64,000 bases of DNA from Nemertoderma westbladi (Eukaryota > Animalia > Xenacoelomorpha): contig JAUCBJ010000877.1 of assembly GCA_032718475.1 (NCBI GenBank), positions 196,109 to 260,108 of the forward strand, given 5' to 3'. The translations under genes and the position numbers were made by a program. Below, in pieces: positions 3,213-58,008 of the stretch. Position 1 is the stretch's first letter; each line of letters begins with the position of its first letter. The notes under the pieces were generated by a model that saw nothing but the letters and a program-made list of their open reading frames with translations, did not search any database and was not told the origin of the DNA.

Positions 3213-5404
3213 TGCCCCTGACACTTCTCCCATCGAATCCATTTATATTGATGATGGAGTCTTAAAAGTTGCATATCCTAATACAATATATATAAAAATG
3301 CTGATATAAATATATGGATATGTGTATATAAATACCCATATCCAATTCAGCTAATTTATATTTATTTTAACGGAATATATGATAAATGCACTTATAATTA
3401 TAGCATTTCTCCAATCTCTATTTAAAACAATATATAGGAATAATTCTATAACAATTTATGAATTCAGAGAGGTTTTTTTGATGAAATAATTATAATGTTA
3501 TTGGTAATTTACTTACTATAAACAGTTTTTAATAAAATAACATGTTTTACTTGTGGTACTTTTATTACAAAGAACTACTTCGTTGTCGCGATAAGTTTTC
3601 CAAATGCGGATGTGGGTTCAAACCTAGAAGTTCAGCTAAATGTTTTTGGTTTGTTTGAACTAAACTCTCGCAGAAAGTCTTAAAATCACTATAGGGTCGT
3701 TTCTTTATTTGCTCTATCAATTCGTTGTTACAATCAAATAAATTTGTCTTTGATCTTATAATGCCAATACCGAAGCTATTTAAAACTAATTCACTTTGCA
3801 GGATTATAATGAGCGCCTCATGCTCCATTTCTATAGCCAGTTCGTGCTGATATTTCGTCAATAAAACCTTGTGTTGATGTCGATCAAATTTAATTTCAGA
3901 CCGTGAATCTTCCAGAAACAAGAAGAGATCTGCCAATCTTCCTTGGTTAGATTCTCTCAAACTCTCGCAGAAAACTTCAAAATCCTTATAAGGCCTTTTC
4001 TTAATATAGTCAATGAGATCACAGTTTTTTTGAAGGGAGGTGGGCCTGGACTTAATTAATTGAACACAATTGTTACTAAGAACGTGTCTGCTTTCAAGGA
4101 TAGGAAGTAAATTGGTTGGGTCAAGGCTTTTTGCCAATGTATATTGGAGTCTTGTTAGCATATATTAGTGATGCCTATTAAATTTAAGTTCTCTTTTATG
4201 GTCTTCTAGAAACAAAGGAAGTTCACCTATAATATGACTTTGATTGGTGGCTTTCAAACCCTCATAGAAAATTCGAATTTGATAAAATCGAAGCCCTCTA
4301 ATATGATTAATAAGATAATTATTTTTTTCAATAGTTGTTACTTTTGATTGGATTATTTCGACAATAGATTTACTGATAACTGATTTGCTTTGAAGATATA
4401 TTAGGAGTTCACCAATCTCCATATGTTCAGCTATAATATCCAGCAGCTTTTCTCGATGAAATGATTCCAATGTTGTTGCTAATTTACATTTTATAAACCA
4501 TTTTCGATAGAACAATGTTGTTACGTCTATCCCACTTGTATCACAATGAACCACTTCGTTTTCCAGACAAGATTCCAAACTTATGAAGTGAAAAGATCCT
4601 TCCAGTAAGTAATATGTTCTGGTTTTATGTCATCTCGAACAGTTACTATTCTAGAAAACATATTATTTAACCATTCAGTGTTTAGTATCACTGTGTCTTT
4701 CAATTGATCATCATCAAAATATATTAGTGTGCCTCTATCATGGTAAAAGTTTAACATTGTTTTTAACCCTGAAGTGTCAAAACTTACTTGAACTTCATTT
4801 AATTTTTCCTCTAAATCAACAACATCAATATAATCTATATCCTTTTTCATTAGTATGAACACAAGTTGTTCAAATTTAATATATTGCAAAGGAATTTCCT
4901 CTTTGAATTTCACCATTTCGTTTACAATATTTTTCTTTAATGCTTCCAGTTCATGATCCTTCGAAGATCTTAATGTGCCATTATTTTCTATGCCATGATA
5001 TCCTTTAATAAGTCCGGAGTAAGGTTTGTTTTGAACTGAACTTCTAATTTCTCTAAACTGCATAGACAACCATTTCTTTGAGTCATTATTAACACATCCC
5101 TTATGTGTTCCAACCACAAAAACTGGTGGATGTAAACCATTACCTTGAGTACTGCATGATTTGGTGCTAAAACTATATATATTTCTCATCCATAAATCAA
5201 TGAAATCAATGTTTCTCATGGTGGTATAAAGTTTATAAATGTTTTTATCATCATCTCTGACTACAATGTCAGCCTCTTTATGAAGATCTTGAGATAGATC
5301 AAAAACTAGTAAATAAATAGCTTGTCTGCTCAGAAATATCGGATGAGTTGTATAGTAAATGCACTGGCCACCAAAATCTAGAATCTTCAAGGAAAAATGG
5401 TTAT

Positions 5405-8400
5405 TTTTTTTAAAACAAGGTGCCTAAACGGGGTAAAAGGTTTATTCTTTTATACAGGTGGAGCAATAAGTTTAAAATTAATTAAAATTTTACAATTAGT
5501 TGGAATGAAATACGATTCAGTACGAATATCAAAGTCTCATGGCTGTGGTGAACCAATTTTCTTTTAGTGATATGGGTGGCTGGCCAGTTCTGTCAGAGAG
5601 GGGCAGCAATCGCAGTTGAGAGCGTGGTATCTGTCCACGGCTGAGTTCTTACAATATTTACAAATACATTGCGATGACAGCTCGTGGAAAGGGGTGCAGG
5701 TCAAGCAGATGAGGTAGTGAAACCCATGGGCGGTTGCCCTGGTGACAGTGTGCCGGTTTCTCTGCTGTGAGGATTTCCAACTCGAAGTTGTGAAGGCTGG
5801 GCCCCTTGTGTAACCCTGCCGGTTGAAGTTTTCTGTGCGTTCGGTTCGGTAAGAGCGATATTGGTCTAATGCTGTAGGGTTGAATAGCGTGGGGTTTACG
5901 ATAAGGAGATCTTCAATGAATGTTTTTTCTCCTATAGCTTTAATGGCCATGGTTGTTGATGAGTTGGATGGTAGGGAGAGCACCCTTTTAATAAACTTTG
6001 ATTTGATTTTATCCAGTTCTTTCATGTGTGCAACTGTAAAGAAGCAACCGATCTCTACAAGACCATATGATACCATTGGCTGTATTTTCATTGCGAAGAT
6101 CTTCATTGCGGTACATATTGACAGTCTGTTTAAATTTCGAAGACAACCAATCGCTGCATAAGATTTCCGTTTTCTTTTGTTAACATGTTTGGTAAAAGTG
6201 AGGGTCGGTTGCAAGGTTATGCCAAGATATTCGTATTCATTGCAGATGAGAACTTCTTTTCCCCCGTAGTAGAATTTATCGTTAATACACAGCCGGCCAC
6301 CTTTACGGAACTTCATTATTTTTGTTTTAGAGAGGTTCACTTCCATTGAATTATTTATACACCATTCTTCTAGGACATCAAGACCGCGTTGGATAACTTG
6401 TGGATTCGAAGAATAAAAGGCTAGATCGTCCGCAAAGAATATGAATCGTATCGCTCTCGATATTGCACGGAGTGCAGTTGCGAGGCTGGTAATAAAAATT
6501 ATGAAGCAAGTTGGGGAGAATGAGTCTCCTTGCAGAATTCCTCGCAACTGTATGATCGGTTTTGATAGGCTGAAACCGTCGGATATTTTTATTGTATTTG
6601 TTAATAATGCCTTAATGAAGCCGAATAATTTCCCCTTTATTTCGAAATCATTATATATCTTGCCACGGAGCAAGGCTCGGTTCACTAGGTCGAATGCCTT
6701 TTTAAAATCAACAAAGGCTACATACATTACACGGTCTTCTTTTGAGTGAAGGGCTTTGTTAATATCTGAGACGAGTTTCCTTATTGCTTGCATATTTGAT
6801 CTCCCTGGTATAAATCCATATTGCTCATCTGGGAACAGGTGGGATATGTTCCGTTGAACCCGTTTGTTTAGTATGGAGGTTAATAATTTTAGGAAAACAC
6901 AGATAAGAGCGATACCTCTATAGTTATTTGGGTCCAGCAGGCTCCCTTTCCCCTTGTATATAGCCTTGATGATGCTACATGTCCATGACAGTGGGATTGC
7001 GCCCATGTTTAGGCAGAAGTTGAAAAGGAGAGTTATAATTGTAATTAGGAGGGGACCTGCAGCTTTTAAATGTTCGTAAAATATTCCATCTGGGCCGCAG
7101 GCTTTCTTTGATGCAGAGTTCTGTATAGCATCGCTTACCTCTTGTTCTCTGATTGGCTCATTGTACCACTCTTCAACACATTTCTCCTGTTCAGATGGCG
7201 AAGGTGGGGTGCTGCTTCCGGGAGGGTCCAGTCTTACACCCAATAAATTGTCGAAGTGGGTCCTCAGAGTTGCTGGTTCTATGGGGATTGATTTCGCCAG
7301 TTTCCCCTCTTTGAAGATCATCCAAGGTTTGATCTCCGCCTGTTTTAAGTTTTCGAGTAGCATTTCTTCCTCATACGCTATTTTCTTGTTTTTCAGTAAG
7401 GCTTTATATTTCTTCCTATTCGCCCAGTACAGGTCATTGTTAGCAGGCGAGTTTTGGCGGTTGGCCATCATCTCAAGTAGTTGGTGCTTGCAAGTCCTGC
7501 ACTCGTCATCGAACCATGGTTTATTGTGGTGGTCTGAGACTTTATTGGGGGGGCATGACGCAGAGTTTATTGTTTCTGTTAGGTATGCTGTCGCTGCGTC
7601 GATGTCTTCCTTTTCTAAGAAGAATTCGATCCAGTCTTCATTAAGTTCCTGCTCAAGGCGGTTAAGGTTTAGAGTCCTGCTACTTCGAAAAACAGGTTCT
7701 GGGTTACATTCACCATTTTCTTTGGAGTACTCCATTGATAGATGCATTTTCTGGTGCTTCCTGATAGGATTGCTCTCTAAGCTGACCGTGATGTTTGTGC
7801 ATCGGTGGGAAGTGGGGTTTCTTATATAGAGAAGATCTATAGTACTCTCGCCCTGGGGAGAGATATATGTCTTTAATTTCGGATTATTGAGTAACTCGAA
7901 CCCAATATCTTGGAGTGATTCTGTCAGGTCGTTTCCCCTATCCCCCGAATCGATCCGACAGTTGAAATCCCCACCAAGAGTTATTGTGTCATCAGCATCT
8001 GTGTATGTTAGTGATTCGTTTATTGCAAATATTACTTCTTCTACAGGAGTGTCGGGGGTAAAATAGAAGACAATATAAATTCCAGCCATTGTCTTAATTG
8101 CCATGTATTCATTTGTTTTGATAAGTAGTTGAGGATCTAATTTTGGAACAGCTAGGACAATTAGACCTCCAGATGGGCGGCCATATTGATTCTTTTTTGC
8201 TGGTTGGACGAAAGGTTTATATGGGGCGCTGCAAATATTTTCTTCTACTTGAAACGTTTCGGTTAGTAATAGTATGTCAGAGTTACTAAATAGTTCTTTA
8301 GGGTTTAGATTTGTTTGTAGGTAGTTCCATCCTTCCACATTCCACAGCGAAACATTGATTTTACTTTTAGAGATTGGTTGTCAATCCGCTCCGTTACCGT

Positions 8401-8520
8401 CTACACGAGGGGCTGTCGCCGTCACATGTTGGGTTTCCTGGCGGTGGCGGTGTTGTACCCGCGGGCGTAGGCCAAATGATTCTCTCTCGGCGTTGGTCAA
8501 TTCTCTCTCGGCGTTGGTCA
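5405..8520 (-). mobile_element. 5'-truncated non-LTR retrotransposon (RTEX-like) with intact ORF2
   Basis: 12-bp TSD AAAAATGGTTAT (5393-5404 and 8521-8532); the empty site is visible in the intact gene copy at about 48019. Short poly(A) tail and a 21-bp tandem duplication at the 5' junction (8479-8520). Confidence 0.93.
5564..8380 (-). CDS. LINE ORF2: AP endonuclease, reverse transcriptase, C-terminal Cys/His motif
   Basis: WNVEG, LLTETF, GGDFN, STIDL (APE); NYRGIAL, FVDFKKAFD, GILQGDSFSP, FFADD (RT); CKYC...HALNC. The frame is open up to the TGA at 8383-8381 with no ATG start. Confidence 0.92.
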   Translation of the reverse strand, partial: QPISKSKINVSLWNVEGWNYLQTNLNPKELFSNSDILLLTETFQVEENICSAPYKPFVQPAKKNQYGRPSGGLIVLAVPKLDPQLLIKTNEYMAIKTMAGIYIVFYFTPDTPVEEVIFAINESLTYTDADDTITLGGDFNCRIDSGDRGNDLTESLQDIGFELLNNPKLKTYISPQGESTIDLLYIRNPTSHRCTNITVSLESNPIRKHQKMHLSMEYSKENGECNPEPVFRSSRTLNLNRLEQELNEDWIEFFLEKEDIDAATAYLTETINSASCPPNKVSDHHNKPWFDDECRTCKHQLLEMMANRQNSPANNDLYWANRKKYKALLKNKKIAYEEEMLLENLKQAEIKPWMIFKEGKLAKSIPIEPATLRTHFDNLLGVRLDPPGSSTPPSPSEQEKCVEEWYNEPIREQEVSDAIQNSASKKACGPDGIFYEHLKAAGPLLITIITLLFNFCLNMGAIPLSWTCSIIKAIYKGKGSLLDPNNYRGIALICVFLKLLTSILNKRVQRNISHLFPDEQYGFIPGRSNMQAIRKLVSDINKALHSKEDRVMYVAFVDFKKAFDLVNRALLRGKIYNDFEIKGKLFGFIKALLTNTIKISDGFSLSKPIIQLRGILQGDSFSPTCFIIFITSLATALRAISRAIRFIFFADDLAFYSSNPQVIQRGLDVLEEWCINNSMEVNLSKTKIMKFRKGGRLCINDKFYYGGKEVLICNEYEYLGITLQPTLTFTKHVNKRKRKSYAAIGCLRNLNRLSICTAMKIFAMKIQPMVSYGLVEIGCFFTVAHMKELDKIKSKFIKRVLSLPSNSSTTMAIKAIGEKTFIEDLLIVNPTLFNPTALDQYRSYRTERTENFNRQGYTRGPAFTTSSWKSSQQRNRHTVTRATAHGFHYLICLTCTPFHELSSQCICKYCKNSAVDRYHALNCDCCPSLTELASHPYH

Positions 8521-9739
8521 AAAAATGGTTATCTTCTTTGATAAATTTAGCTAATATTTCTTCAGGTTTTCCAGATGAAAGTATATCTTTTATGCGACAT
8601 AGAATATCTGTTGGAATAGGTGGCATGATTTGGTCATTTGTATTATCTAGCAGAAAATAATTTTTCGCAGTCGATTTCGGTTTTTTTCTTTTACCCACAT
8701 ATTTAGTCTTTGATTTTCTAGATTTTTTATTCCTTTTACTTACTAAGACTTTAGTGGCTCCTTTTAAAGGGTAGCAAAATCTACTGTTACTTCTCGATCT
8801 GTTCTCACTCAATTTTTGGAGTCCGTCATTATTATGGTTAACAGCACAACTATCCACTGTTGAATAGTTCGATGCGGCATTGGTTCCAATTGAATCTCCA
8901 CTATGATAATTACTTTCTAAAACAGATCTTGCAATTTGGTTTGCAAAAATCCCATTAATTTCAGGACCAAATGTATCGTTATCTCTCATGTTAGTCCAAT
9001 CACTGTATTGATCAGCATATATATAACAGTTTGTTGAAGAATCCACACCATCTGTTAAAGGCTCATTCTCCATGAAGGACAGGCCAATAAGAGCCTTCTT
9101 TAAACTTGTCTTGCCAGCTCTCTCTTGTCCAACTAACATTAGCCTGGTTTTCATCATCCATGTTGCACCAATCGATAGAGCTTTTTGATAAGCAGATAAT
9201 GCCTCAGATTAGATCCTAATTGACAGGTGTCATCAATTAATTAGTACAATTAAACCCTAACAGGTGTCATATGACTCCTAATTAGGGTTTAATTGATTAT
9301 CCTAATTAATCAGACTGATTAGCGCCCTGACACACAATGGGTCATCAGTTGGGTCTAACTGTCACCGAGAGGAGCAAAGGGTGTCATAAGTGACACCGCG
9401 GCTCTTTTATTTATTAATACCTATTTATTTATATTTAATTTTAATTAATTATTTGTATTTTATTTTACTTTATTTATTTGTATTTAATTCTAAATTAATT
9501 ATTCATTTGTACTTTATTTTAAATTAATAAATTGTATTAACTTTACTTTATACATTGATTTCTATTTTTAGATTAATTAGTTTTTATATTACTCTTATAT
9601 ATATCCAGACAGCTTTATCGTTGACCTTTGACCCCCAATTAGCTATAACCAAGCAACAGCTTATTAATAATAGTTGTATCCAAGCACCCCACCCCCTCTC
9701 GTGACACCTCTGATTACTAATTACTCTTACCTATATCCA

Positions 9740-32960: not shown

Positions 32961-33809
32961 GATCCCTTAGATACATAACGTAGTACCTATAGCGATACGG
33001 CTATAGGTCGTCAGGCGGTGGTATTTTCCTATCTGGACAACGCAGTGTATTTACTACTACGTATTATTTTCAAATACCGCAGTACCCTGTCCGTTGTAAT
33101 AACCAGAATTCTAACCCTTTGTTAGGCTGGTTTGTAGACTTCTTGTAAAATTACCCTAAAAATTCGTATTTTGTGTTTTTTGTAAATTTTTGTGTTTATT
33201 TAGAGATTGTAATCTCACCCGAATTGTACGTAATTTGTAGTATTAAGTAACTTAGGTAAATTAGAATTATTTGTTTTAGTGTCCTATAAGTAACACTTCA
33301 CTGAAAGCGCACCGCTTTGTGTAGTGATTACTCCCCAGAAATAATAACATTTATTTCAAACATTGACAAACCCATTAAAACGGGTATATATATATTATAA
33401 ATCAAATCTAACGATTTATAAATAGTAGGCCTGCCATACAACAATTAGGTCTCAATATCAGTTGGACTACTGCTTAAATAACGGTAATAAAGTAAGTTAA
33501 AGTAACCAAGTAACCCTTAAAATTCAGAAATTCAATTATTCTAAAATAATTGACATACCGGTATCCACGATAGGCCTATTATATATTTATATATATTTGT
33601 GCTAAAATTATATACCGGTTTCTGTGAAAAACCTAGTCTGTAATAATACTTATATATACCATAAGCATACCGGTATTCTAATATTATATATATCACGCTA
33701 CACTGAGTAGCAGTATCGGTAATTAATTACTAGGCTAGCAGTTAATACTGAATTACTAGACTTGCTTGGACTGTAATATAGCAGTAGGCATTCAACTGTA
33801 CAACCAAAC

Positions 33810-36800: not shown

Positions 36801-37130
36801 TTCTCCGACCAAAACGAATCCTGTTACCTAATAAACACCACCGCAGTGTATCGAGCACTCGTGCATGAGAAAGACACAGACAGCGACCTTACCTTAACTA
36901 CTTCTGATCAACAACCATCTTGGAAAGCGCCAACTTCCAATATAGGAATCCGAGAATTTCCTGTAGTCCAGTTACGGGTCCACGGACCTCAGAAGAGCTA
37001 TATAGTGAACGCCCTCCTGGACTCCGGTAGCACAGGAACATTCATCGATAAAGAACTAGCCGAAGTCATCTTTGCTGGACAACCCAAGTTCCGAACCAAG
37101 GGATCATGCAGGTTTGGAATTCTACTGTAG
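33810..37130 (+). CDS. gag: BEL-C Gag (capsid-like domain, three Zn knuckles) and protease start
   Basis: KFNGDEMKWLPF...EKLRFLIECLEG (Pao gag, DUF1759-like); CVLCDGPHRLNAC, CYNCLRRGHQRRTC, CAKCGAKHHILLH; ALLDSGS. Confidence 0.93.
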   Translation: MSDSQQTLSDSLLEGVRMSIRLRQRLKRICDQDQSMEHPRPKSKSPPTVRKIIPQVVVSDPRLVQHRRSIIGTRAQVKRDQEAAEPQQPASQELTSQRPDSSSSSDTVERTPERGAKMADKVYDERPTYEESTDATSSQEESEVTAEKPHKRDAIDIYLSDYQRFVGDEELRRRLEGLSPNSEGTKLVLDAIDAEMLAANQAKFDEQLRITRVQEEQVKKKRIEDRKKAAVVAAEAERKAAAAKAKAAEAAAEAKAAEAAAEAAAEAKVAEAERKAAEETTQLELENIQENQDCINKQLAASNMQMMNRSTPKRQGYTSSEEGDTTDTEGKGNRSRLSRRKRTFHRQKLPDLPPAVRRQLNSTNLGSTEPTDQIIKIERLPTIVDEPEIIRPVLEITPSVIDTPVLPEVTSKFPLHSTKLPVPSRTAHEAVQVLDPERNIPDLSPVVPRPPATTLATPASAVEWVDERRRGMDLLLGQMQETVQQFKGTVRESRLELQEVQQSIALERDKLVNTQKGIPPPSVTMCQPVRSEVSHAQGVEPTRIYTASEVETPIVNPIKGNYRPVDKDIPYRTDHNPRNLYTDNSILNNTMAQESFTRQMARTEARQAVKVGEIVKFNGDEMKWLPFNEYYKDNIQNSVLSNGEKLRFLIECLEGSPKLMALKFIGHPDGLRQVWDTLNIRYGNRNNIAGYLYAKLVAPRKFISSGIIEFSDEIQEICRQLDWLGKSHEYQNTMVIRAVASTLPKGGVGTRWDKKVLYMMEQQRRDPTMADLMSFLDIEVKLQLLRQSREKTLENKVSEKPVSRRRVTPMCYTDDGESLTSQGEDSGKDTERSYYVNKTPKDQVSKSKSRPNDRREPVQKTPPTSPKRIQVRKSEERTSVHHIAQVKVSNIKPKCVLCDGPHRLNACDKFLRKSLKDRREVMWDKRLCYNCLRRGHQRRTCYSDARCAKCGAKHHILLHTEFERNSPSQVSESELHVQFSDVNDTDQSEMEGLYTDEFSDQNESCYLINTTAVYRALVHEKDTDSDLTLTTSDQQPSWKAPTSNIGIREFPVVQLRVHGPQKSYIVNALLDSGSTGTFIDKELAEVIFAGQPKFRTKGSCRFGILL

Positions 37131-38218
37131 CTGCCGACTATTATATAGGTGAGTTGTCCACTCCACAGGATAAACTAGGAGAATACAGTATAAGGTCAGT
37201 CAAAATGGTGGCAATAAAGAACTTCGCTACCACCCAAGTGGAACCTTATAATTGGGACGAAGATGATCATGCCCAACAACTTAACATCCCTAGATTCGAC
37301 ACCGATTATCCTGGAGTACAAATATTAATCGGTCAAAACGCGCATGAGGCGCTGGAGACATTGGAGAAACGACCTGCTCAACCGCAACCACTTCAGACCT
37401 ATGCGGTAAGAACTAGAGTAGGTTGGTACCTTACTGGACCTTCCCGAAGAACGCTCAGAGAAAGACTGCTTCAAGATCGCGTCCGCCAGGTGAGTGAATG
37501 GGAAGATGATACTAGTGAGGGAGACGACCCAACAGAGGGAACACCATACTCCTCAGATAATGACGATATTAGCTCCAATGTAGATCAATGGAGATATTGC
37601 CCCAAGAAGTTTAATCCAACTGACATCGCTTCCAGAGGAGCAACTCCTCAAGAACTGACAGATACTACAGACCGGTTAGGTGAACCCGACTTCCTGAGTA
37701 AGGAGGATGAATGGCCTCCCCATCTTACTCCGACTGAGATTAGACCAGCCAAGGGAGCGGAGAAAGTCAAACCTAAAACCCAGACGGGTGGATCGGAGTT
37801 ATTTGAACCCGGGATAGATCTGTCGGTATTACATATTGCCAGGGACGACGCCGTGGATCTGGACCTCCCCACCGCGAGTGGATCCTTCATGAAGATCAGA
37901 GAGAGCGATTGGAGCTCTGGAACATCAGACGTCTCGCAGGGACTCTCACCTCTCCTGCAGGGAGCGACGGACCACTATAGCTCCTGGAATCGGCTTTGTA
38001 AGGCCGTCGTGTACTTAGAGCGATGTTTCTATCGTCACTATTCCAGGACGAAGAGGAAACCTGGAATTGTATTCGGGATGCAGCGACTCAATCACCCAGT
38101 CGGTCGTTTGTGTTTACCGGAAGGGAATGGAGGACTCTCCGGAAACTGTGGAAGGCAAGATTCTCTTCCCACGACCACCTCCCTAATCCTTCAAACATCT
38201 AGGGACTCCATAACGTAA
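37106..38218 (+). pseudogene. BEL-C pol remnant: protease C-half joined to the post-RNase H region; RT, most of RNase H and integrase missing
   Basis: ILIGQN...AVRTRVGWYLTGP, then QWRYCPKKFNPTDIASRG and SSWNRL. No YVDD or DDE motifs. Confidence 0.85.
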
Positions 38219-43290: not shown

Positions 43291-45532
43291 TTAATGAAAT
43301 ATAATTCATCTGTTAATTATTTCAAAAAAAAATCCAAAATTATATTAACATTTATATAGTTTTGAATTAAATGTTTCGAAATCAATACAGCAGTGTCATA
43401 TATCGCGTATCCCTTGGTTTAATCACTATTCTTTATTCAAATAAAACTGAATCCTGGCCCGCCGCCTTCACCCTCCACTGATAATTTAAAATCGTAATTC
43501 ATTCAATCTTTGACTAAATTATACCAAACTTGGTAAACATGTAATCTTGTCTATCGGCTAAAATAAACACAACTTGCTAAAGTTTCCCCTATAATGTTTT
43601 TTCCTATAGAACAGGATGCAGTTTTATTTTAGTAGTAAACAAGCTGTTATTTGCGTCGATTTTCACCTGGAGAGGGAAGAATATTGATTGCCCCCCCCCC
43701 CCCCTACCTGCAGTTAAGTGAAAATATTTCGGCACCATTTAATTTTATTATCACGGTCGCGCATCAAGTAGTCTGTCAAAAGATACAATTCATTATAAAC
43801 ATAACAAAATTAATTATAATAATTCTAAAAATATAAGGCGGATTATCCTAAAGTTAGCTCTTTAGTCTTTAGCAACCTTATACATTGACAAGTCTTATAA
43901 AATAATTGATGTTGAATAATTATTATTAAGATTAAAATATATTATTAGGAATTCGAAGAAAGCAAATTGTATTGAGTTAGTATTGGCAAGTTAATCTCAC
44001 AAACCAGTCTAGTCTAACTTTACAGTAGCCTTGTTCGCTTTGTTCCAGGTTTAGGCCTATAGATTCCACCGTCTTCGTTCCAGGTTTAATACTGTAATAG
44101 ACACCGTTATCCGTCTCGATCGCTTCGCTATGCACCATCTTACTGGGTTTAATAAACTCCGTCGCCTTCCTGTCATTCTGTGTTTTGTAGATTACCTCGC
44201 CATCGTGTGATCGCTTTGGTTGCGTGTTTAATACTGTAATAGACTCAGTCGCCATTGTATCGTTATGGATTGAATAGACATTCCGTTGTCCATCGTGATC
44301 GTTTCATTGTTTACGTTTAATTGACTCCGTCGCCTCCTCGGATTAGGAATCCGGCCGGGTTTCGTAGATTCCACCATCGTTCAGCAGTTCAGTGTTTTTA
44401 ATCAAAGCCAGAATTCCGGCACGGGCACCACAATCAACGATTTCGGAAGTAACAGACCAGCAGACTCCGTCAACAACACTCGGGGTTTAAAAACTACAAC
44501 TGAGGGCAACTTGTAACTGCAGAACTGGGCGATCATCTATCTGATAGTTGAAAAAGACTGTCTGACAGTTGGTATCAGACTATCTGATAGTTAGCGCCCC
44601 ATGGGTAAATCCTTACCCCATGGGCTGTTACCTCTCTGACTGACAGCGCAACAGCCCCTATAGTCCATGGTGAGATAATGTCACACTAAAATTAACTCTC
44701 AATGATAGTCATACTCACCATTCAAATATCCCTCACAAACCAGATTCCCCCCAGCATCTAAAGTATTCCACTTCAATGCAAAATATATAGAGCTTTAGTT
44801 GGATTTGAACCTGTGCTTGTAAACTCTTTTGTGCTCGTATATTGAAGTGACGCATAGACTATGAGGGTGTCATAAGTGACACCCTTTGCTCCTTTCTGCG
44901 ACACTTGGACCTCACTGATGACCCATTGTGTGTCAGGGCGCTAATCAGTCTGAATAATTAGGATAATCAATTAAACCCTAATTAAGAGTCATATGACACC
45001 TGTTAGGGTTTAATTATACTAATTAATTGATGCCACCTGTCAATTAGGATCTAATTAGCCTAATTAGGAGGTGTCACCCAGACAGTCTGGCGCCAATGAC
45101 ACCCAATGACACCCATAGGCTGATAATTGGGTGTCATATGACACCCAATGGGTGTCATGTAGGTCTAACTGTCACCGAGAGGAGCAAACCCCTACTCCCA
45201 TCTAATCCATTTATATTGATCATGGAGTATTAAAAGTTGCATATCCTAATACAATATATATAAAAATGCTGATATAAATATATGGATATGTGTATATAAA
45301 TACCCATATCCAATTCAGCTAATTTATATTTATTTTAATGGAATATATGATAAGCGCACTTCTAATTATAGCATTTCTCCAATCTCTATTTAAAACAATA
45401 TATAGGATTAATTCTATAACAATTTATGAATTCAGAGAGGTTTTTTTGATGAAATAATTATAATGTTATTGGTAATTTACTTACTATAAACAGTTTTTAA
45501 TAAAATAACATGTTTTACTTGTGGTACTTTTA

Positions 45533-48500
45533 TTACAAAGAACTACTTCGTTGTCGCGATAAGTTTTCCAAATGCGGATGTGGGTTCAAACCTAGAAGTT
45601 CAGCTAAATGTTTTTGGTTTGTTTGAACTAAACTCTCGCAGAAAGTCTTAAAATCACTATAGGGTCGTTTCTTTATTTGCTCTATCAATTCGTTGTTACA
45701 ATCAAATGAATTTGTCTTTGATCTTATAATGCCAATACCGAAGCTATTTAAAACTAATTCACTTTGCAGGATTATAATGAGCGCCTCATGCTCCATTTCT
45801 GTAGCCAGTTTGTGCTGATATTTCGTCAATAAAACCTTGTGTTGATGTCGATCAAATTTAATTTCAGACCGTGAATCTTCCAGAAACAAGAAGAGATCTG
45901 CCAATCTTCCTTGGTTAGATTCTCTCAAACTCTCGCAGAAAACTTCAAAATCCTTATAAGGCCTTTTCTTAATATAGTCAATGAGATCACAGTTTTTTTG
46001 AAGGGAGGTGGGCCTGGACTTAATTAATTGAACACAATTGTTACTAAGAACGTGTCTGCTTTCAAGGATAGGAAGTAAATTGGTTGGGTCAAGGCTTTTT
46101 GCCAATGTATATTGGAGTCTTGTTAGCATATATTGGTGATGCCTATTAAATTTAAGTTCTCTTTTATGGTCTTCTAGAAACAAAGGAAGTTCACCTATAA
46201 TATGACTTTGATTGGTGGCTTTCAAACCCTCATAGAAAATTCGAATTTGATAAAATCGAAGCCCTCTAATATGATTAATAAGATAATTATTTTTTTCAAT
46301 AGTTGTTACTTTTGATTGGATTATTTCGACAATAGATTTACTGATAACTGATTTGCTTTGAAGATATATTAGGAGTTCACCAATTTCCATATGTTCAGCT
46401 ATAATATCCAGCAGCTTTTCTCGATGAAATGATTCCAATGTTGTTGCTAATTTACATTTTATAAACCATTTTCGATAGAACAATGTTGCTACGTCTATCC
46501 CACTTGTATCACAATGAACCACTTCGTTTTCCAGACAAGATTCCAAACTTATGAAGTGAAAACAAGCCTCATTTCTACAATTATTTAGCTTATGAACTTC
46601 ACAAACGATATTACATCGACATCTAACTTTTAATTCAAAGTTATTTTTATTAAACAGTAAGTCATTTAATGTTATAAGTAATTGTTGTTTAAAACATGTA
46701 GTTATAACTCTATCTGGACATGGTTTTGCAAATTGGTTCTGCTGTGACAGAATTGGTCTTTGTATTATTTGAATTTTAATTCTAAAGAGACCCAAGGGAG
46801 AATTTTCTATAATAATCTCATGATCTGCATCCAGGTAAATCTGAGTAAATCTATGATAAAGTTTTGGCTCAGTTTCTCTATCACCATTCTCATAGCACCA
46901 GATAATGATTTGTTTTATTAACTTAAAGTACAAGTTGCTTGGAATGAATCCGTCAAATATTAAATACATTTCTATACTGTTCCATTCAATTGGAAATCCA
47001 TCAGTGTCTCCCCACGGTGTAAGGCGACAAGGAACATAGTATGAAGTCATTGATCGAATAGTATCATGAGATATCAATGCATGGGCTGGAATAGGAATTC
47101 TTTCAACCAATAAATCAAATCGTTCTAAAATATCTAAAGTATAAGTTATCTTAATTGGATCAGTAATATCTCTCCACAAGTAATCAATAAGCTTCTTATG
47201 TAAGATTCCTTTTTCATTAAGATCCTTCCAGTAAGTAATATGTTCTGGTTTTATGTCATCTCGAACAGTTACTATTCTAGAAAACATATTATTTAACCAT
47301 TCAGTGTTTAGTATCACTGTGTCTTTCAATTGATCATCATCAAAATATATTAGTGTGCCTCTATCATGGTAAAAGTTTAACATTGTTTTTAACCCTGAAG
47401 TGTCAAAACTTACTTGAATTTCATTTAATTTTTCCTCTAAATCAACAACATCAATATAATCAATATCCTTTTTCATTAGTGTGAACACAAGTTGTTCAAA
47501 TTTAATATATTGCAAAGGAATTTCCTCTTTGAATTTCACCATTTCGTTTACAATATTTTTCTTTAATGCTTCAAGTTCATGATCCTTCGAAGATCTTAAT
47601 GTGCCATTATTTTCTATGCCATGATATCCTTTAATAAGTCCGGAGTAAGGTTTGTTTTGAACTGAACTTCTAATTTCTCTAAACTGCATAGACAACCATT
47701 TCTTTGAGTCATTATTAACACATCCCTTATGTGTTCCAACCACAAAAACTGGTGGATATAAACCATTACCTTGAGTACTGCATGATTTGGTGCTAAAACT
47801 ATATATATTTCTCATCCATAAATCAATGAAATCAATGTTTCTCATGTTGGTATAAAGTTTATAAATGTTTTTATCATCATCTCTGACTACAATGTCAGCC
47901 TCTTTATGAAGATCTTGAGATAGATCAAAAACTAGTAAATAAATAGCTTGTCTGCTCAGAAATATCGGATGAGTTGTATAGTAAATGCACTGGCCACCAA
48001 AATCTAGAATCTTCAAGGAAAAATGGTTATCTTCTTTGATAAATTTAGCTAATATTTCTTCAGGTTTTCCAGATGAAAGTATATCTTCTATGCGACATAG
48101 AATATCTGTTGGAATAGGTGGCATGATTTGGTCATTTGTATTATCTAGCAGAAAATAATTTTTCGCAGTCGATTTCGGTTTTTTTCTTTTACCCACATAT
48201 TTAGTCTTTGATTTTCTAGTTTTTTTATTCCTTTTACTTACTAAGACTTTAGTGGCTCCTTTTAAAGGGTAGCAAAATCTACTGTTACTTCCCGATCTGT
48301 TCTCACTCAATTTTTGGAGTCCGTCATTATTATGGTTAACAGCACAACTATCCACTGTTGAATAGTTCGATGCGGCATTGGTTCCAATTGAATCTCCACT
48401 ATGATAATTACTTTCTAAAACAGATCTTGCAATTTGGTTTGCAAAAATCCCATTAATTTCAGGACCAAATGTATCGTTATCTCTCATGTTAGTCCAATCA

Positions 48501-49143
48501 CTGTATTGATCAGCATATATATAACAGTTTGTTGAAGAATCCACACCATCTGTTATAGGCTCATTCTCCATGAAGGACAGGCCAATAAGAGCCTTCTTTA
48601 AACTTGTCTTGCCAGCTCTCTCTTGTCCAACTAACATTAGCCTGGTTTTCATCATCCATGTTGCACCAATCGATAGAGCTTTTTGATAAGCAGATAATGC
48701 CTCAGAACCTCTTGCTAAAATTTCTATTGGTATTCTTTGATATTTTATATATTGAACTAAAACTTTAGGCAGAATTAAAGTTGACCCTCTTCTTATTAGA
48801 AGTCCTTTATCTATTAACTTTCCAATTACCTTGCAACTTGATAGTTCATCAGTACCCCAAATTTCACTGATAGCTTCCATTTGTAATTCAGTAACATCAA
48901 TATCCAGACTCAAGTATAATTCCTTATCTTCTACCATGAGGGAATCGACGGTTCTTTTAATTATTTCATTTATTTGGCCATGATAAATTTTATTAATAGG
49001 ACCAACCCTTCCAACATAATGAACAATTTCTTTCCACTGGGTTGTATCATCCAAAAGAACTTCTAACTCTGTGATGCTTTTCTCAGAAGCACACGGTTTC
49101 TTATGAAGGGAATTTACTCGTAAGATTGTTCCACTATTATTAC
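45533..49143 (-). CDS. Roco gene, last exon: end of WD40, winged-helix-like region, Roc GTPase, COR, Cys-rich region, 3x CARD
   Basis: Acceptor TTTTTATTTAG at 49144, phase 1. GQERAGKTS (G1), TDGVD, ILDFGGQ (G3), VGTHKG (G4); LNFYHDRGTLIYF...VILNTEWL (COR); three ~85-aa CARD-like repeats (for example LDPTNLLPILESRHVLS...LIDYIKKRPYKDFEVFCESLRESNQGRLADL). Confidence 0.93.
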
Positions 49144-49854
49144 CTAAATAAAAATATTAAATAAGTAATAACATCAGTATTGAAATATTAAATATAATCG
49201 GTCCAATTAAAGCCAAAATTAAAAAAGTCTATAGAATGAAAATTGTTTGCGCTTCTAACATTCACTATATACCATGTATTGATTTAAGTATTAATTAGGC
49301 TAAGAAATCGAATATTTATTGTATGCAGCTAAAACATCAGCAAATGGATGGCCGATATCTCCAGCTGATTATTTATGTGTCATAGATTCCAGTGTCCTAG
49401 GCGAATTACTCCTCACCCCCCCCCCCCCCCCCCCCCCCACCTTCCCGGCACCCCTCATCCTCCCCTATAGACTTACGGTATATTAATAATGTGGTAGGTC
49501 TAATTTAGTTAATTAATTTTACTCGGACCCTTGGCAAACAAAGGGCCGTTTGACTCTTATATTAATGTCACTAACTCTAAGTTATATGATCTGGGAGTAT
49601 ATTGCTGGTATTTACTGAATTGAACGGGCTCTATGCTCAAAATAATAGAGTAGATTGCTCTAATCCTAGTATACGGTTTCAGGATATCCCTGATTAACAG
49701 TTACGTGTCCACCAAATTCAGACGTCTAAGTACAGTAGGATTGAACAGTGAGCACAGTGGAACCATATGATGGTATTGACAGATGGGAGGCCATGAGGGC
49801 GTAAATTGAGGGCATACAAAGCATCGGGTAGTATTTCCAGGTCAACCTTTTACC

Positions 49855-49950
49855 TGAACCACTAGTGGAATGGTTAAACCATCGGACTTCCAACCTGAAG
49901 GTCACCAGTTCGATCCCACTTGGACTGGATGTCATTGCCAACTTTACCAC
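49855..49950 (+). mobile_element. tRNA-derived SINE-like head in the Roco intron
   Basis: A-box-like TAGTGGAATGG, anticodon-like loop CTTCCAA, B-box AGTTCGATCC; no proper acceptor stem. Confidence 0.55.
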
Positions 49951-50176
49951 ACGTGTCCAATGAAAGTTAAAAATCTAGACAGGACGTAGATCTATTGGTG
50001 ATAATTACTTGTGATTGACAGAATAGGCCCATAATACTTGTCAACTATTACTATGCAAACTACTTGTCACTGAAACATCGACATGTTCCAGTGACAAGGA
50101 CATGTTACAGTCAACGTTGATGTTTCGGCTGTGAGCAGTGGAACAACAACATAATAGCATAAATTACTTAGATTAC

Positions 50177-51050
50177 CTATAATGATATGGACGTTGTCGT
50201 TGTGATAATGAACAGCCATTACAATTGTCCTCTCTGCAGTGAGTTTGATTCGGTTAACTATCTCTCCGGTGTGGAAATTAATTATGTAAATCAACCCAAG
50301 TCCAACGGCGGCAACTCTAGACCCGTCTGAACTGAAAGCGAGACGGCTTGAACCTGTAGCCCCTTCCTGCTCCCAAAGTAATTCACAAGAATCAACAAGA
50401 AAGCGATGAATGCAACCTCCATCTTCTAATGAAACGATAGATTTAGAATCTTGACTCCAACCCAGTCGGAGGACACCTGCACTGTGACCGAGATATTCCG
50501 TTATGAATTCTTTTGTACTTATCAACCAGACTTTAACAGTTTTATCACGAGATGAACTGGCCAATCTGGAACCATTCGAATCAAAACGAATATGCGTGAC
50601 CCAATCAGAATGTCCTTTCCATGACAATACTTTGTATCTATACCCTTTAATATATATTATTGAAATGCTCCCATCACCAGAACCGCATGTGCATAGTATA
50701 TCAGGGTCACTTGGGTGGAATTGGATTCCAGTTCTGACTACAACCATTCCACCTCTAATCTGGAACTCAGAGCCAGGTATCTGGAATCTCAGGTCCCACT
50801 TACCAGAAGACATTCTGTACCATATAGCAACATCTCCACCTCTAGTACTTGAAGCAATCCGGCTCCCATCACACGAAATAGAAACTCTAAGAAAATTCAT
50901 TGATGAACTTGACAACGTTGGCATAGAGTTAGTTACGTATAAGGTCGATGAGTTAGCAATGACTACGCTTTTTGGGGAACTATATACAAACTCATCCGTG
51001 TCTGTAGGAAACGGTTGGATGTCACAAATTCCATTATCTTCAGATTCCAT
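50177..51050 (-). CDS. Roco gene, WD40 beta-propeller exon
   Basis: GHSDWVTHIRFDSNGSRLASSSRDKTVKVW and similar repeats. The phase-1 donor G|GTAATC at 50177/50176 joins to 49143 to give HIIIG-NNSGTILRVN, completing a WD blade. An acceptor-like TTTATAG at about 51081 suggests further upstream exon(s). Confidence 0.88.
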
Positions 51051-52940
51051 CGCGAATATAAAGAGTGGATGGATGTAATACTATAAATTTTTTTAGAGAA
51101 TGAGTCTATATTATTTTAATTACTATAATTAATCGAATTAATGGCATGTTTAATAGGTGTTAAATGATTTATAATTGTTTCAGTAATATAATAATCGAAG
51201 ATAAATTATTATTAAGAATTTAAAATCAAGAATCTTAAAATACTAAGAAATTAATTGGACTTTAATACAACAAATATAAAGGAAAATTACCTTTATTATC
51301 ATATATTAATGGTGTAAGTTAGGTAATCGTTTTGACCGCTGTGACAGAGTAATGTTCGAAAGCATTTGATTAAGTTTGATAACAATCATGTAGTCAAACA
51401 TTAAAGGGATTTAGACACGTATATATTTGTTATTTATACAATATGTAATTTTATGTAAAATTTACCTAAAGGATATACCTTAGCATAATAACTAAATCGA
51501 AAATCTGGATGAATCTTTCGAATATAATTCGAGAAATGCATGCAGGATATTATCGACGCAATTTGAGTCAATAAGGACAAAAAATATCAGATATGCCTGG
51601 ATCTACCAAAATATTTTTAATGTAACTGCCAAGAAAGTGCTGCCTTCGTGTGTTACCTTACCACTTGGTGTTTCATGTTCACAGGCAAATTTAAATTACT
51701 TTACTTTTAGCCTGACCCTCCATTAGGTTAAAGAGCACTTTAAACAATAACAAATTAAATAACATCTAATCAGATTTAATTAACAAGCACCTTCAACAGA
51801 AAGTACATAGAGTTTCATACCACCTTCATATAACTCCTAAAAACCCAATTACCCTGATTTAGTAAGTCTGATCTTCAAGAGTTTACTTTATTCTCGGCTA
51901 CAATCAACTGAAAAATTAAAACAGATATTTAGAAGTGAAAAATGGTATATATATATATATATATATAACATATGTAGGTACGCAAGTGCATGATGTGTTG
52001 CAATATGTGGACAGTATAGTCCATGTAATTTTATGTTCCAACAGACACATATGTAATAAGTGCATTTGCTGCCTAGTATAGTATTAACAAGCAGCTTAAA
52101 GATATTGCGAGTAAACGCAAGATATATAGAAGAGTGAACACAACACTAGTGTGTAATATGTGTGTTCACTTATTCAGTATGAAATAAAGAAACGCTAGTT
52201 ACAGTAGGTAACACTTTGCATGATTGCTAAACACTTATTTTGATCAATTACGATTAGGCAAGAGTTCTGCCATGTAACGCGGTATAGCAAGGGCACTCAT
52301 GTGCCACCCTTGGTAAAAACAAAGTGTGGTCGAAATCAGAGATGCGCAACGATTTAGCACAATTATGATACTGTTAGTAATCCTACATAACTGTCTCTAT
52401 CCATCGTTGCAGTAATCACACACTGATTGACAATCGGTTATCATGTATTTTGGATTGTTGGAACACTCTCCCTCGTGCTGCCCACGTGATACAATGTTCG
52501 TTCAGATCTTCCCTTTCAGAGCATTCTGGATTTAAGATAAATTAAGCAACTATTTTTATGTAATATTAATATTAGGTTTGTCGATTAAATATTCCAGAAA
52601 ACTAATAAATTTTTACGAATTTGACATTAAATACCAAATCAATAATTCTGTGAACCTTCAATATTCTGAAATAATATTGTGCAATGCTAGGTCGATAGGT
52701 CGATAGGTCGATAGGTCGATTTCTTGATCAAACATCAAATTGTTTTATGCAAAACTAACATGAAAATAACTGCAAATATTGCTGGGCATTCGTAGAAAAA
52801 TAATTTATTGAGGGATAGTGCTTAAATAGCTCTTATAGACGACGTTCACTGTCTTAGTAATGGGCTGAGAGTTGGGGAATCGAAAACAAAGAATAGAGAT
52901 GAGGAACAGCGATAAAGTTTTTAATTTCATAATATTATAA

Positions 52941-55295: not shown

Positions 55296-58008
55296 ATGAC
55301 TGCCCAAAGGGGGAAATCAAATTATACATTGGAACAAGCTATCCGTTTTCTTGAAAACGATGATTTACTCCCACCACTAACTGACTCTGATAGTGAAACG
55401 GAAAGTGAGAGTGGAATTTCAGGAAATTAATTACTTCTGGATAATGTGGGTGAAGAAATCATTGGTATAACCGAGGGCGGTAGTGGTGAAGTGGAGGAAG
55501 AAATCCGAGGAGGGGATGATTCAATTCAAGCAGAAGAACCAGATAGGCCTAATGTGAATATAGTGATGAGACCAATCCCTGCATCAACTAAGTTGGCAAG
55601 TGGAAAAACACCCAATGTAAGAAAACGCCTCTTCACAGAAATTTCAAAAGCTGGCACTATTCATCACAAACCAAAACATATAATAAATAGTTTGGATGCG
55701 TCATTGGATATAAATAATTATAATCCACTTGATTTGCCAGCTGATAGTTGCAACTATGACGCACCCTATGGTAGAGAAGGGCATCAAGGTGTTTATACAT
55801 GGAGTGGTAAACCATATGATTTACGTGGACAACACTCAGCCCTTGATGTTGTTGTTGGGAAACCAGGGTTAGCCACAACAGAGGCTAAAAACATTAATAA
55901 CATTGAACAGGGTGGTCGTTATTCTTCAGAGATAACATAATAGGTGAAATATTAAAGTACACAAATGTAAAAATAGCACGAATCAATGAAGAATTCCCAC
56001 TATCAGCATCCCAGCAAAGTAGACAACGTGATTGGAGAGGGCTAACAGGTGAGATAGAATTGAAAGCGATGATGGGCCTAATGTACATTCGCGGACTGCT
56101 GGGGTGGCATAATTATTATATCTCTATGTTGTACGATGGAAATCTAGGAAATGACATATTTTCTGCGACAATGTCACGAGATCGATTTCAGTTCCTTCAT
56201 GCGGTATTGACTTTTGATGATCACACTACTAGGGAGGATCGTTGGGCCCAAGACAAGTTAGCTGCATTTCGTAGCATCTTGAATATGTTCAATTCTAATT
56301 GTTCGAGTCATGTCATCCCAAGCGAATACCTTACAATTGATGAAACATTGTACCCCATGAGGTAAGTATTAAATAATTCGGTTAATTAAATGCTTGAATT
56401 TAACATAAAAAAATTAAAACTGAATAAAGTTTATAAATTTATAAGCAAACGATACCAAAAATGCAGTATTATGTGTTTATAAAACTGTTTAATTCATATC
56501 TGGCCAATGCCATGGTTACACTAAAATATGAATATTTACTTTAATTTCTCAGACATGCCATATCGGGAATAAAGACATATATAAAAGCTAAGCCGGCGAA
56601 GTATGGGATCAACAATCGGTCTTTGAATGACGTTATATTTCCTTATACCTATTGCTGTGACCCCTATGCCGGTAAACCGTTAGTACCTGATGATGCTCCT
56701 GAATATGTTGAAGGCTATGTTGCTGTGGTTACTAAACTTGTTGATATTCTCCGCAAACACACATCTGTCAAAGGACGTAACATATCCAGTGATCAGCTTT
56801 ACACCTCATTACCGCTATCAGCCGCCCTTGAGGACAGAGATATGACTATACTTGGGACAATGCAACTAAATAGAGTTGGTATACCCGATTACATGAAGGA
56901 GATTGGAGATAGGGAGACTCACGATGTACGCATGGTATACCTACCGCGTCACAAATCAAAGGATGGAATAATCGCGAAAAATAATCGGGCTACTATGACT
57001 TCATACAAAGACTAAAAGCAAAGGGAAGAAGTTAGTTTGGTTTAGTATTGTTGATTTAATATAACTTATTATAATTATATAACTAATAACTTCATGATTA
57101 TACTCGTGTGCTACTACTTGTTGCTAAAGTAGTCTGAATGAAGTAAATTGAAACGAAATAAATGTTGATTAGTAAAATTAAAGAAATTAATAAAATACAT
57201 AATTAAAATTATCTTGTAATAATAGAAAAATAAAATTACCAAATAAATAATAATTAATAAAATAGTGCCGATAATCGAAAACTGAGAAAAATATTTACTT
57301 ATGTTTTATATAATATTATAATAATGTAAGACAATAAATTTATAAAGTAATATGTAGTAAAATAATCGCAATTAAATATGTTATTATTTTGTTAGGAATA
57401 TTATAGTATTGACGTCGATGCATCCACTCCTTGGGAAGACAAAGGATGACAACAAGAACAAACCCGCAATCATCAAACTTTACGACTTTTCAAAAGGGGA
57501 CACAGATATAGTCGACCAACGCATTGGATACTACACCACAAAACCGAAATCAAATAGGTGGCCAATGGTAGAATTCAGCTACATTTTAGATACGGCCCGT
57601 GTTAATGCTACAACTGTCCTTGCCTTGAAGGCAAAAAAAGATCCAAGGAACGTCAATACTCGGAAAATCATTTGGGAGTTGGGTGTTGCACTGGTAAAGC
57701 CATATATGGTCAGTCGTTCTAGAACTGGTCTGCAAAGATCAGTTCTAGAAAAAATATCGCGGTATATCGATGAGCCAGTTACGACTGCTACTCTTCCCTC
57801 GACATCGCAAACACCACAACCTCAGGGTGGTACACCAACACGTAAACGTTGCCGCGATTGTCTACATAGTCTAGCTGGAACAGGTTGTTACCGTGCAGAG
57901 AAGGATAAGATAAAAAAAGTGAAAACTGTATGTTCCCGTTGCAACGAAACTTGCTGTCAAACGCATGGAACTCTCCTTTGCACTAAATGCTATACTGGAA
58001 ATCTCTAA
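55296..58008 (+). pseudogene. Intron-containing piggyBac transposase with stops and frameshifts
   Basis: TMSRDRF, LTIDE, KPAKYGI, ISSDQLYTS, GDTDIVDQ and a C-terminal Cys-rich domain. GT-AG introns at 56362-56552 and 57031-57395 (the second join gives KSKGKK-NIIVLTSMHP). In-frame TAA at 55428. Confidence 0.9.

What the first reader, a model, noticed from the sequence alone, without database searches (positions are those of the whole stretch)
45533..51050. WD40-WHD-Roc-COR-3xCARD: an apoptosome-like scaffold built on a Roco GTPase
Seen: phase-compatible splice sites join a WD40 propeller to a Roc-COR module with three C-terminal CARDs (about 1494 aa, no kinase, no LRR). Established: Apaf-1/Dark use CARD-NB-ARC-WD40; Roco proteins (LRRK, DAPK1, MFHAS1) dimerise through Roc-COR, and invertebrates have expanded kinase-less Rocos with death-fold domains. 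Inference: sensor (WD40), switch (Roc-COR) and effector (CARDs) are in reverse order to Apaf-1, giving a candidate nucleotide-switched caspase-recruiting or immune receptor.
Basis: partly seen in the sequence, partly recalled or inferred. Interest (0 to 1): 0.85.

Follow-up and report, generated by a model that had tools for sequence, protein, structure and literature searches.

The report
Roco GTPase carrying three CARD domains
An animal-type gene whose two exons are predicted to splice into one protein, joining a WD40 propeller, a Roc-COR GTPase and three CARD death-fold domains, likely acts as an intracellular danger switch, and it is a new combination within a known, heavily domain-shuffled invertebrate family rather than a second apoptosome.

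Summary
Exons 51050-50177 and 49143-45533 join in frame to 1494 aa. Pfam confirms WD40, Roc, COR-A and CARD. CARD2 passes the curated cut-off; CARD1 and CARD3 are sub-threshold repeats of it. GTPase motifs G1-G5 are present. No RNA could test splicing, but the junction falls inside a WD40 blade and ranks first of 89 in-frame GT/AG pairs. The winged-helix label is only a lead. A 99%-identical broken copy lies 40 kb away.

The interpretation needs trimming. Sensor-GTPase-effector is the normal Roco/AP-GTPase order, and propeller+AP-GTPase+TIR proteins are listed for prokaryotes (PMC8195603 supplement). Roc-COR with CARD is known in Trichoplax (PMC4104024) and occurs in 3 of 154 relatives; 0 of 154 carry WD40. 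This scan earlier noted Trichoplax CARD-Rocos and a protist WD40-Roc-COR-MLKL gene on other DNA. No STAND ATPase is present, so 'apoptosome-like' is an analogy only. Best reading: a lineage-specific, GTP-switched CARD-recruiting immune or death receptor (about 55%, untested). New variant of a known kind.

The parts
50177..51050 (-). Coding exon 1: ATG plus WD40 propeller (aa 1-291; about 7 blades by eye, 4 detected by HMM; the last blade is cut by the intron)
49144..50176 (-). Predicted phase-1 GT-AG intron, 1033 nt; no long ORF or P-loop seen in the three sense frames; one AATAAA at 49320
50798..50806 (-). Alternative donor candidate CTG|GTAAGT (exon end 50804), same phase; would give a 1285-aa form lacking most of the propeller
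45533..49143 (-). Coding exon 2 (aa 292-1494 and stop)
48740..49084 (-). Helical linker, aa ~312-426; possible STAND-type helical plus winged-helix remnant (lead only)
   Evidence: Atlas: the three named families shown are STAND winged-helix domains at 0.82-0.84. Not significant; AlphaFold pLDDT 32
47552..48652 (-). Roc GTPase, aa ~456-822: G1 GQERAGKTS (464), G2 Thr, G3 DFGGQ (672), G4 THKG (762), G5 IEN; ~155-aa variable insert with a Lys/Arg-rich patch at 595-622
47108..47518 (-). COR-A domain
   Evidence: PF16095 E 3e-14
46478..47107 (-). COR-B-equivalent region ending in a Cys/His cluster shared with the Neuralized-Roc-COR-Death-TIR relatives
46184..46432 (-). CARD 1 (20.5 bits, below the Pfam cut-off)
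45890..46138 (-). CARD 2 (43.3 bits; best PDB sequence match is the RAIDD CARD, E 0.0095)
45590..45841 (-). CARD 3 (22.0 bits, below the Pfam cut-off)
3224..9208 (-). Broken duplicate of gene positions 48706-45192 (99% identical). It lacks WD40 and linker, has a LINE inserted in Roc (5412-8520), a ~656-nt deletion in COR and a nonsense codon before CARD2; 3 synonymous and 15 non-synonymous differences

Best explanation
The locus is an intact gene, predicted to splice into one kinase-less Roco protein that likely works as a cytosolic immune or cell-death switch: the WD40 propeller (with the helical linker) would sense a ligand or hold the protein off, the Roc-COR unit would change its dimer state with GTP binding and hydrolysis, and that change would cluster or free the three CARDs to recruit a CARD-bearing caspase or adaptor. 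Shown: the open frames, the domain identities, G1-G5 motifs, tandem CARD duplication, and membership in an invertebrate Roc-COR radiation whose two ends are swapped freely. Inferred: splicing of the two exons, GTPase activity, the sensing role of the propeller, the dimer switch (from Roco literature) and the CARD partner. It likely arose by lineage-specific domain shuffling; its Roc-COR is a long branch with no close relative.
For: Domains. G motifs line up with 25 relatives. Junction inside a WD40 blade, top of 89. The C-terminal slot in relatives holds Death, CARD, TIR, caspase, HEPN, trypsin, OTU or GT4 domains. A caspase domain is fused C-terminally in 3 of 89 scanned (P0051 Lingula, P0075 Owenia, P0070), linking this slot to caspase activation. 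Kaur et al. (PMC8195603, section 15) describe AP-GTPase+COR proteins with N-terminal sensor repeats and at least 24 C-terminal effectors as counter-invader systems. The intact copy has no lesion, while its 99% duplicate has four and a neutral 3:15 syn:nonsyn ratio (20% of sites are synonymous).
Against: No expression, splicing or biochemical evidence. CARD1 and CARD3 are below the Pfam cut-off. G4 reads THKG, whereas the aligned relatives mostly have N, D, E or S at the last position, so guanine specificity could be altered. No orthologue was found (best identity 33% over the Roc-COR core), so conservation cannot vouch for function. No functional study of an invertebrate kinase-less Roco with CARDs turned up in my 9 literature searches. 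The two copies cannot be polarised, so selection on the intact copy is only suggested.
Confidence: 0.55

Rival explanations
1. The gene is real and spliced but is not an activating receptor: it is an inhibitory CARD sink, a membrane or cytoskeleton scaffold like other Rocos, or a young chimera with little function.
For: Orphan long branch of 1.48 changes per column. The window is rich in transposons and the gene was recently duplicated. Exon 1 and exon 2 differ in GC (41.5% vs 32.5%). Civiero et al. stress cytoskeletal and trafficking roles of Rocos.
Against: 4.5 kb of coding frame and G1-G5 are intact while the duplicate decayed within 1% divergence. Relatives carry overt effector enzymes in the same slot.
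Confidence: 0.25
2. The WD40 frame and the Roc-COR-CARD frame are not joined as proposed: either WD40 reads through to its own stop (327 aa), or splicing uses the 50804 donor and the main product lacks a full propeller.
For: The WD40 frame runs 35 codons past the donor (p about 0.08) and an AATAAA lies in the intron at 49320. The donor at 50804 matches 8 of 9 consensus positions and is in phase. 0 of 154 relatives carry WD40.
Against: The last blade is completed only by the proposed junction. Exon 2 has 73 open codons before any Met, and its frame opens 13 nt before a pyrimidine-rich acceptor. The 209 WD40 codons after 50804 stay open and recognisable.
Confidence: 0.13
3. It builds a true apoptosome-like ring, with the winged-helix remnant and CARDs assembling as in Apaf-1 but driven by GTP.
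For: It holds the three non-ATPase part types of Apaf-1 (CARD, possible WHD, WD40). Atlas leads point to STAND winged-helix domains. A gap-poor 80-column alignment to the matching region of two cyanobacterial NB-ARC-WD40 proteins was obtained.
Against: No STAND nucleotide-binding domain. The WHD alignment is not above shuffles (16.9 vs 95th percentile 18.4; rank 79 of 1911 scored). Roc-COR is described as a dimerisation device. One propeller rather than Apaf-1's two (recalled).
Confidence: 0.07

Closest known systems
Kinase-less animal Roco proteins with death-fold ends (Trichoplax repertoire, PMC4104024; Branchiostoma P0135 Roc-COR-CARD; Sinanodonta P0064 Roc-COR-2xCARD; Amphiura P0004 Rho-Roc-COR-CARD)
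   Same: Roc-COR core, no kinase, no LRR, C-terminal CARD(s).
   Different: None of the 154 examined has an N-terminal WD40 or three CARDs. The CARD-bearing members do not form one clade (AU p 6e-53, group named after seeing the tree), so CARDs were likely gained separately.
Neuralized-Roc-COR-Death-TIR proteins (Owenia, Tubulanus, Branchiostoma, Physella; NHR/ROCO/Death/TIR domains are noted for Aplysia in PMC9334734) and echinoderm Roco expansions
   Same: Best sequence matches (E to 1e-99, about 30% identity). Shared pre-Roc motif and Cys/His cluster after COR. Same supported 13-row clade.
   Different: Both ends are replaced: WD40 plus linker for Neuralized, 3xCARD for Death-TIR. The branch is very long, so it is not shown to be an orthologue.
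Prokaryotic AP-GTPase counter-invader proteins, including BetaPropeller+AP-GTPase+TIR (Kaur et al. 2021, PMC8195603, Fig 6 source data)
   Same: The same order: propeller or LRR sensor, Roc(-COR), effector.
   Different: Prokaryotic, with TIR or enzyme effectors; no 'COR+Death' string in that file. The window's core groups with animal Rocos, far from the bacterial ones.
Apaf-1 / Dark (CARD-NB-ARC-WD40)
   Same: Uses CARD and WD40 around a nucleotide switch; possibly a related winged-helix piece.
   Different: The switch is a Roc GTPase, not a STAND ATPase; order reversed; three CARDs; no evidence of a ring.
LRRK1/2, DAPK1, MFHAS1
   Same: Roc-COR tandem. LRRK2 has a WD40 and DAPK1 a C-terminal death domain (recalled).
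   Different: No kinase, no LRR or ankyrin; WD40 is N-terminal here.

Membership tests
Roco (Roc-COR GTPase) | Roc domain with G1-G5 motifs | tested here: met
   PF08477 45.3 bits, above 27; motifs aligned with relatives, G4 ends in Gly
Roco (Roc-COR GTPase) | COR directly after Roc | tested here: met
   PF16095 53.5 bits, above 35.3; COR-B-equivalent region aligns with relatives
Roco (Roc-COR GTPase) | GTP binding/hydrolysis and nucleotide-dependent dimerisation | not testable with these tools
   needs biochemistry
CARD-domain protein | CARD repeats | tested here: met
   CARD2 43.3 bits, above the cut-off; CARD1 and CARD3 20.5 and 22.0 bits, each 35-44% identical to CARD2; fold model unusable
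Apaf-1-like apoptosome scaffold | STAND NB-ARC nucleotide-binding domain | tested here: not met
   no NB-ARC or NACHT hit in either exon; no P-loop seen in intron frames
Apaf-1-like apoptosome scaffold | Winged-helix domain of STAND type | tested here: inconclusive
   Atlas leads 0.82-0.84; profile tests not significant; AF2 pLDDT 32; Foldseek E 0.86 or worse, mostly winged-helix regulators
Apaf-1-like apoptosome scaffold | N-terminal CARD, C-terminal WD40 | tested here: not met
   order is WD40 ... CARD
Apaf-1-like apoptosome scaffold | Ring oligomer that activates an initiator caspase | not testable with these tools
   needs structure and assay
LRRK / DAPK1 / MFHAS1 | Kinase and/or LRR-ankyrin repeats | tested here: not met
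   none listed by Pfam at E up to 1
AP-GTPase sensor-switch-effector conflict protein | N-terminal repeat sensor, Roc-COR, variable C-terminal effector in one chain | tested here: inconclusive
   met if the junction is used; junction supported by sequence only

The most novel reading that the evidence does not exclude
Invertebrate Roc-COR proteins form an unrecognised GTP-driven counterpart of NLRs with integrated decoys. Relatives carry captured pieces of host signalling proteins in the N-terminal slot (CBP/p300 TAZ, KIX and CREB-binding domains, PARP14-type RRMs, Macro, Bcl-2, DED, SH2, Ets, Rho, NACHT) and death-fold or enzyme effectors at the C-terminus. This gene is the member that captured Apaf-1/STAND-type parts (WD40 plus winged helix) as its sensor and uses three tandem CARDs to nucleate a caspase-activating assembly without any ATPase ring.
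Probability: 0.2. Interest if true: 0.8.

Novelty: new variant of a known kind. Interest (0 to 1): 0.5.

Why it matters
If the mechanism holds, it is a compact natural test of a long-open question: what the Roc-COR nucleotide cycle outputs when there is no kinase. It would also show that animals can wire caspase or CARD signalling to a GTPase switch instead of a STAND ATPase. The wider pattern in the relatives, host-protein fragments in front and death or enzyme effectors behind, suggests a large and under-described invertebrate immune receptor family. As a single orphan gene without expression data its weight is moderate.

Tried and rejected
RNA: no RNA holder listed; no evidence either way. 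No whole genome is held, so paralogues outside the window were not counted. Metagenome scan: 409 pattern matches, 0 relatives. AlphaFold without alignment: exon 2 pLDDT 31.8, linker 32.3, both unusable. Foldseek on the linker model gave nothing at E up to 0.001. The wide structural search and the complex prediction (whether exon 2's first strands close the propeller) were not available. Linker searches in Pfam, PDB sequences, NCBIfam and the 5.8-billion set gave no significant hit. An HMM from 69 of 80 cyanobacterial NB-ARC loci ranked the linker 79th of 1911 scored sequences. WD40 search for longer fused forms: 120 of 981 hits were listed, all generic WD40 proteins at 23-38% identity, 0 of 120 with Roc-COR. 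Hidden NB-ARC exon in the intron: rejected, no long frame or P-loop seen. Duplicate as a retrocopy proving transcription: rejected, since it has no poly(A) tail, runs ~340 nt past the stop and does not span the junction. First IQ-TREE run on 71 rows did not finish; FastTree on 71 rows and IQ-TREE on 31 rows were used. Host taxon not determined: animal, probably invertebrate, by inference from the relatives.
Full report
Observation. The minus strand holds two long frames: 51080-50067 (WD40) and 49156-45533 (1207 codons). The longest frame in 1000 shuffles of the latter was 182 codons. Pfam finds WD40 in exon 1 and Roc, COR-A and three CARD stretches in exon 2, with no kinase, LRR, NB-ARC or NACHT. 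Taken singly the CARDs score 20.5, 43.3 and 22.0 bits against a cut-off of 23.9. Repeats 1-2 and 2-3 are 35% and 44% identical, so they are tandem duplicates of one CARD. The best PDB sequence match is the RAIDD CARD (E 0.0095). G1 to G5 align with 25 relatives; G4 ends in Gly, where relatives mostly have N, D, E or S.

Is the junction real? It could not be tested on RNA. Three sequence arguments favour it. First, the intron cuts the last WD40 blade. With a repeat HMM built only from database proteins, the proposed pair ranks first of 89 open in-frame GT/AG pairs (2.4 bits; next -0.2; read-through -0.8). Only 23 of 2000 shuffles and 2 of 1100 other exon-2 pieces do as well. The absolute score is low. 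Second, exon 2 is open for 73 codons before its first Met (p about 0.005 at the local stop rate), so it needs an upstream start. Third, its frame opens 13 nt before a pyrimidine-rich acceptor. Against: a closer-to-consensus donor at 50804 is in the same phase and would give a 1285-aa form with most of the propeller skipped; the WD40 frame also reads through 35 codons to its own stop, with an AATAAA in the intron. I put the proposed junction at about 85%.

The winged-helix claim. Residues ~312-426 have no significant match in Pfam, PDB sequences, NCBIfam or the 5.8-billion protein set. They align almost without gaps over 80 columns to the helical/winged-helix region of two cyanobacterial NB-ARC-WD40 proteins, but not above shuffles (16.9 vs 95th percentile 18.4). 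An HMM from 69 of 80 such loci ranked the linker 79th of 1911 scored sequences. The ESM Atlas top hits were unnamed, and the three named families shown were STAND winged-helix domains at 0.82-0.84, which the tool calls leads. The AlphaFold model is unusable (pLDDT 32); its Foldseek rows are mostly winged-helix regulators at E 0.86 or worse. So a STAND-derived winged helix is plausible but unproven.

Surroundings. The window is rich in transposons: two LINEs, Pao-type LTR elements and a broken DDE transposase. At 3224-9208 lies a 99%-identical copy of gene positions 48706-45192. It lacks the propeller and linker and has a LINE inserted in Roc, a ~656-nt deletion in COR and a nonsense codon before CARD2. 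Its 18 coding differences are 3 synonymous and 15 non-synonymous, as expected under neutrality. It is a DNA-level duplicate, not a retrocopy. The contrast with the lesion-free copy suggests, but does not prove, that the intact gene is maintained.

Relatives. The word-indexed search gave 6 hits. The exhaustive search gave 4150 at E up to 0.001, of which the best 150 were listed; together 154 distinct proteins were examined. All match over Roc-COR only, at about 22-41% identity. Named ones are from annelids, a nemertean, a brachiopod, molluscs, echinoderms, amphioxus and cnidarians. 0 of 154 score on WD40 profiles. 3 of 154 have C-terminal CARDs: Amphiura P0004, Sinanodonta P0064 with two, Branchiostoma P0135. 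Pfam scans of 89 of them, showing the best five families each, reveal extreme shuffling. In front: Neuralized, DED, Macro, FN3, ankyrin, NHL, NACHT, kinase, TAZ, KIX, CREB-binding, Ets, Bcl-2, SH2/SH3, EH, PARP14-type RRM, CAP-Gly, Rho, caspase. Behind: Death (35 of 89 show one, two of them N-terminal), TIR, CARD, caspase (3), HEPN, trypsin, OTU, GT4, kinase. In trees of the Roc-COR core the window protein is a long branch (1.47-1.48) with odd composition. It falls inside a supported group holding the Neuralized-Roc-COR-Death-TIR proteins and echinoderm expansions (FastTree, 71 rows; IQ-TREE LG+G4, 31 hand-picked rows; midpoint root only). One clade of CARD-bearing members is rejected (p-AU 6e-53; group named after seeing the tree). 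The Atlas also returns mollusc and sponge Roc-COR clusters with Death or CARD (CARD on 26% of an 85-member cluster). Conversely, 0 of the 120 listed (of 981) long WD40 hits contain Roc-COR.

How it likely works. Shown: parts, order, intact motifs, family context. Inferred: the propeller and linker sense a ligand or restrain the protein; Roc-COR changes dimer state with nucleotide; the three CARDs then recruit a CARD caspase or adaptor. The dimer model is taken from Civiero et al. and from recall of Roco biochemistry. Caspase domains fused in the same slot in relatives support the caspase link by context only. Confidence 0.55. Rivals: inhibitory, non-immune or near-neutral chimera (0.25); exons not joined as proposed (0.13); true apoptosome-like ring (0.07).

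What is known. Civiero et al. 2014 (PMC4104024; passages and part 1 of 2 of section 5 read, figure not held) report at least 17 Trichoplax Rocos with CARD, death, TPR, LRR and ATPase domains. Kaur et al. 2021 (PMC8195603; passages, section 15, and term searches in its supplements; file 4 was cut when stored and file 13 was not searched) define AP-GTPase+COR proteins with N-terminal sensor repeats and at least 24 C-terminal effectors. They list prokaryotic BetaPropeller+AP-GTPase+TIR and animal APGTPase+COR+Death or +caspase architectures; the strings 'COR+CARD' and 'WD40+AP' were absent from the files searched. Passages of PMC11378527, PMC5094078 and PMC9334734 propose immune roles for Rocos in brown algae, sea anemones and Aplysia. 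PMC11874512 has no whole-word Roc or COR in its main text. Nine full-text searches (listings only, 30 of 54 shown) surfaced no description of WD40-Roc-COR-CARD in an animal. The library lacks most subscription papers, and unseen supplements could list it. The scan's own notes include a protist WD40-Roc-COR-MLKL-like gene and a Trichoplax CARD/death Roco cluster (unchecked AI notes).

Verdict. A real, apparently intact Roco gene with a combination I could not find elsewhere. It is a member of the Roco family and works, by inference, like the sensor-GTPase-effector conflict proteins. It is not a member of the Apaf-1 class. Each half of the design is already known, so it is a new variant of a known kind. 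Interest 0.5. The boldest reading not excluded, a GTP-driven receptor family with integrated decoys in which this member captured STAND-type parts, has probability 0.2 and would merit 0.8.

Noticed in passing
proteins P0016, P0060, P0133, P0127, P0075, P0019, P0083, P0113: Invertebrate Roc-COR proteins carry pieces resembling CBP/p300 (TAZ, KIX, CREB-binding), PARP14 (RRMs, Macro), Bcl-2, DED, Ets and SH2 in the N-terminal slot, a pattern like integrated decoys of plant NLRs. One search for 'ROCO' with 'integrated domain', 'GTPase' and 'immune receptor' found no paper. Gene-model fusion artefacts were not excluded.
   Followed up: partly
proteins P0075 (Owenia), P0051 (Lingula), P0070, P0144 (Potamilus): Roc-COR fused directly to a caspase domain; P0075 is Bcl-2-Roc-COR-caspase.
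   Followed up: no
proteins P0028/P0278 (Montipora), P0068 (Actinia): NACHT-Roc-COR(-Death) fusions: a STAND ATPase and a Roc GTPase in one chain.
   Followed up: no
window 3224-9208: 99%-identical pseudogene copy of the 3' part of the gene; its 5' break abuts an inverted piece (9208-9397) of the repeat element that lies just downstream of the intact gene (44866-45055).
   Followed up: yes
window 5412-8520: LINE with a stop-free 938-codon endonuclease-RT frame and a ~19-nt target duplication, inserted after the duplication, so very recent.
   Followed up: partly
window 16060-23042 (-) and 33777-38218 (+): Pao/BEL-type LTR retrotransposon frames (Pfam Peptidase_A17, DUF5641, DUF1759).
   Followed up: no
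window 55431-58008 (+); 30923-32986 (-): Fragmented DDE_Tnp_1_7 transposase; a second RT frame.
   Followed up: no
window ~51851-51905 (-): Short AG...GT-bounded segment with stops in all three frames; candidate non-coding 5' exon, with an acceptor-like site at 51080 before the ATG.
   Followed up: partly
window 48160-48240 (-), aa 595-622: Lys/Arg-rich patch (14 of 28 residues) in the variable Roc insert; could bind acidic membranes or act as a nuclear signal.
   Followed up: no
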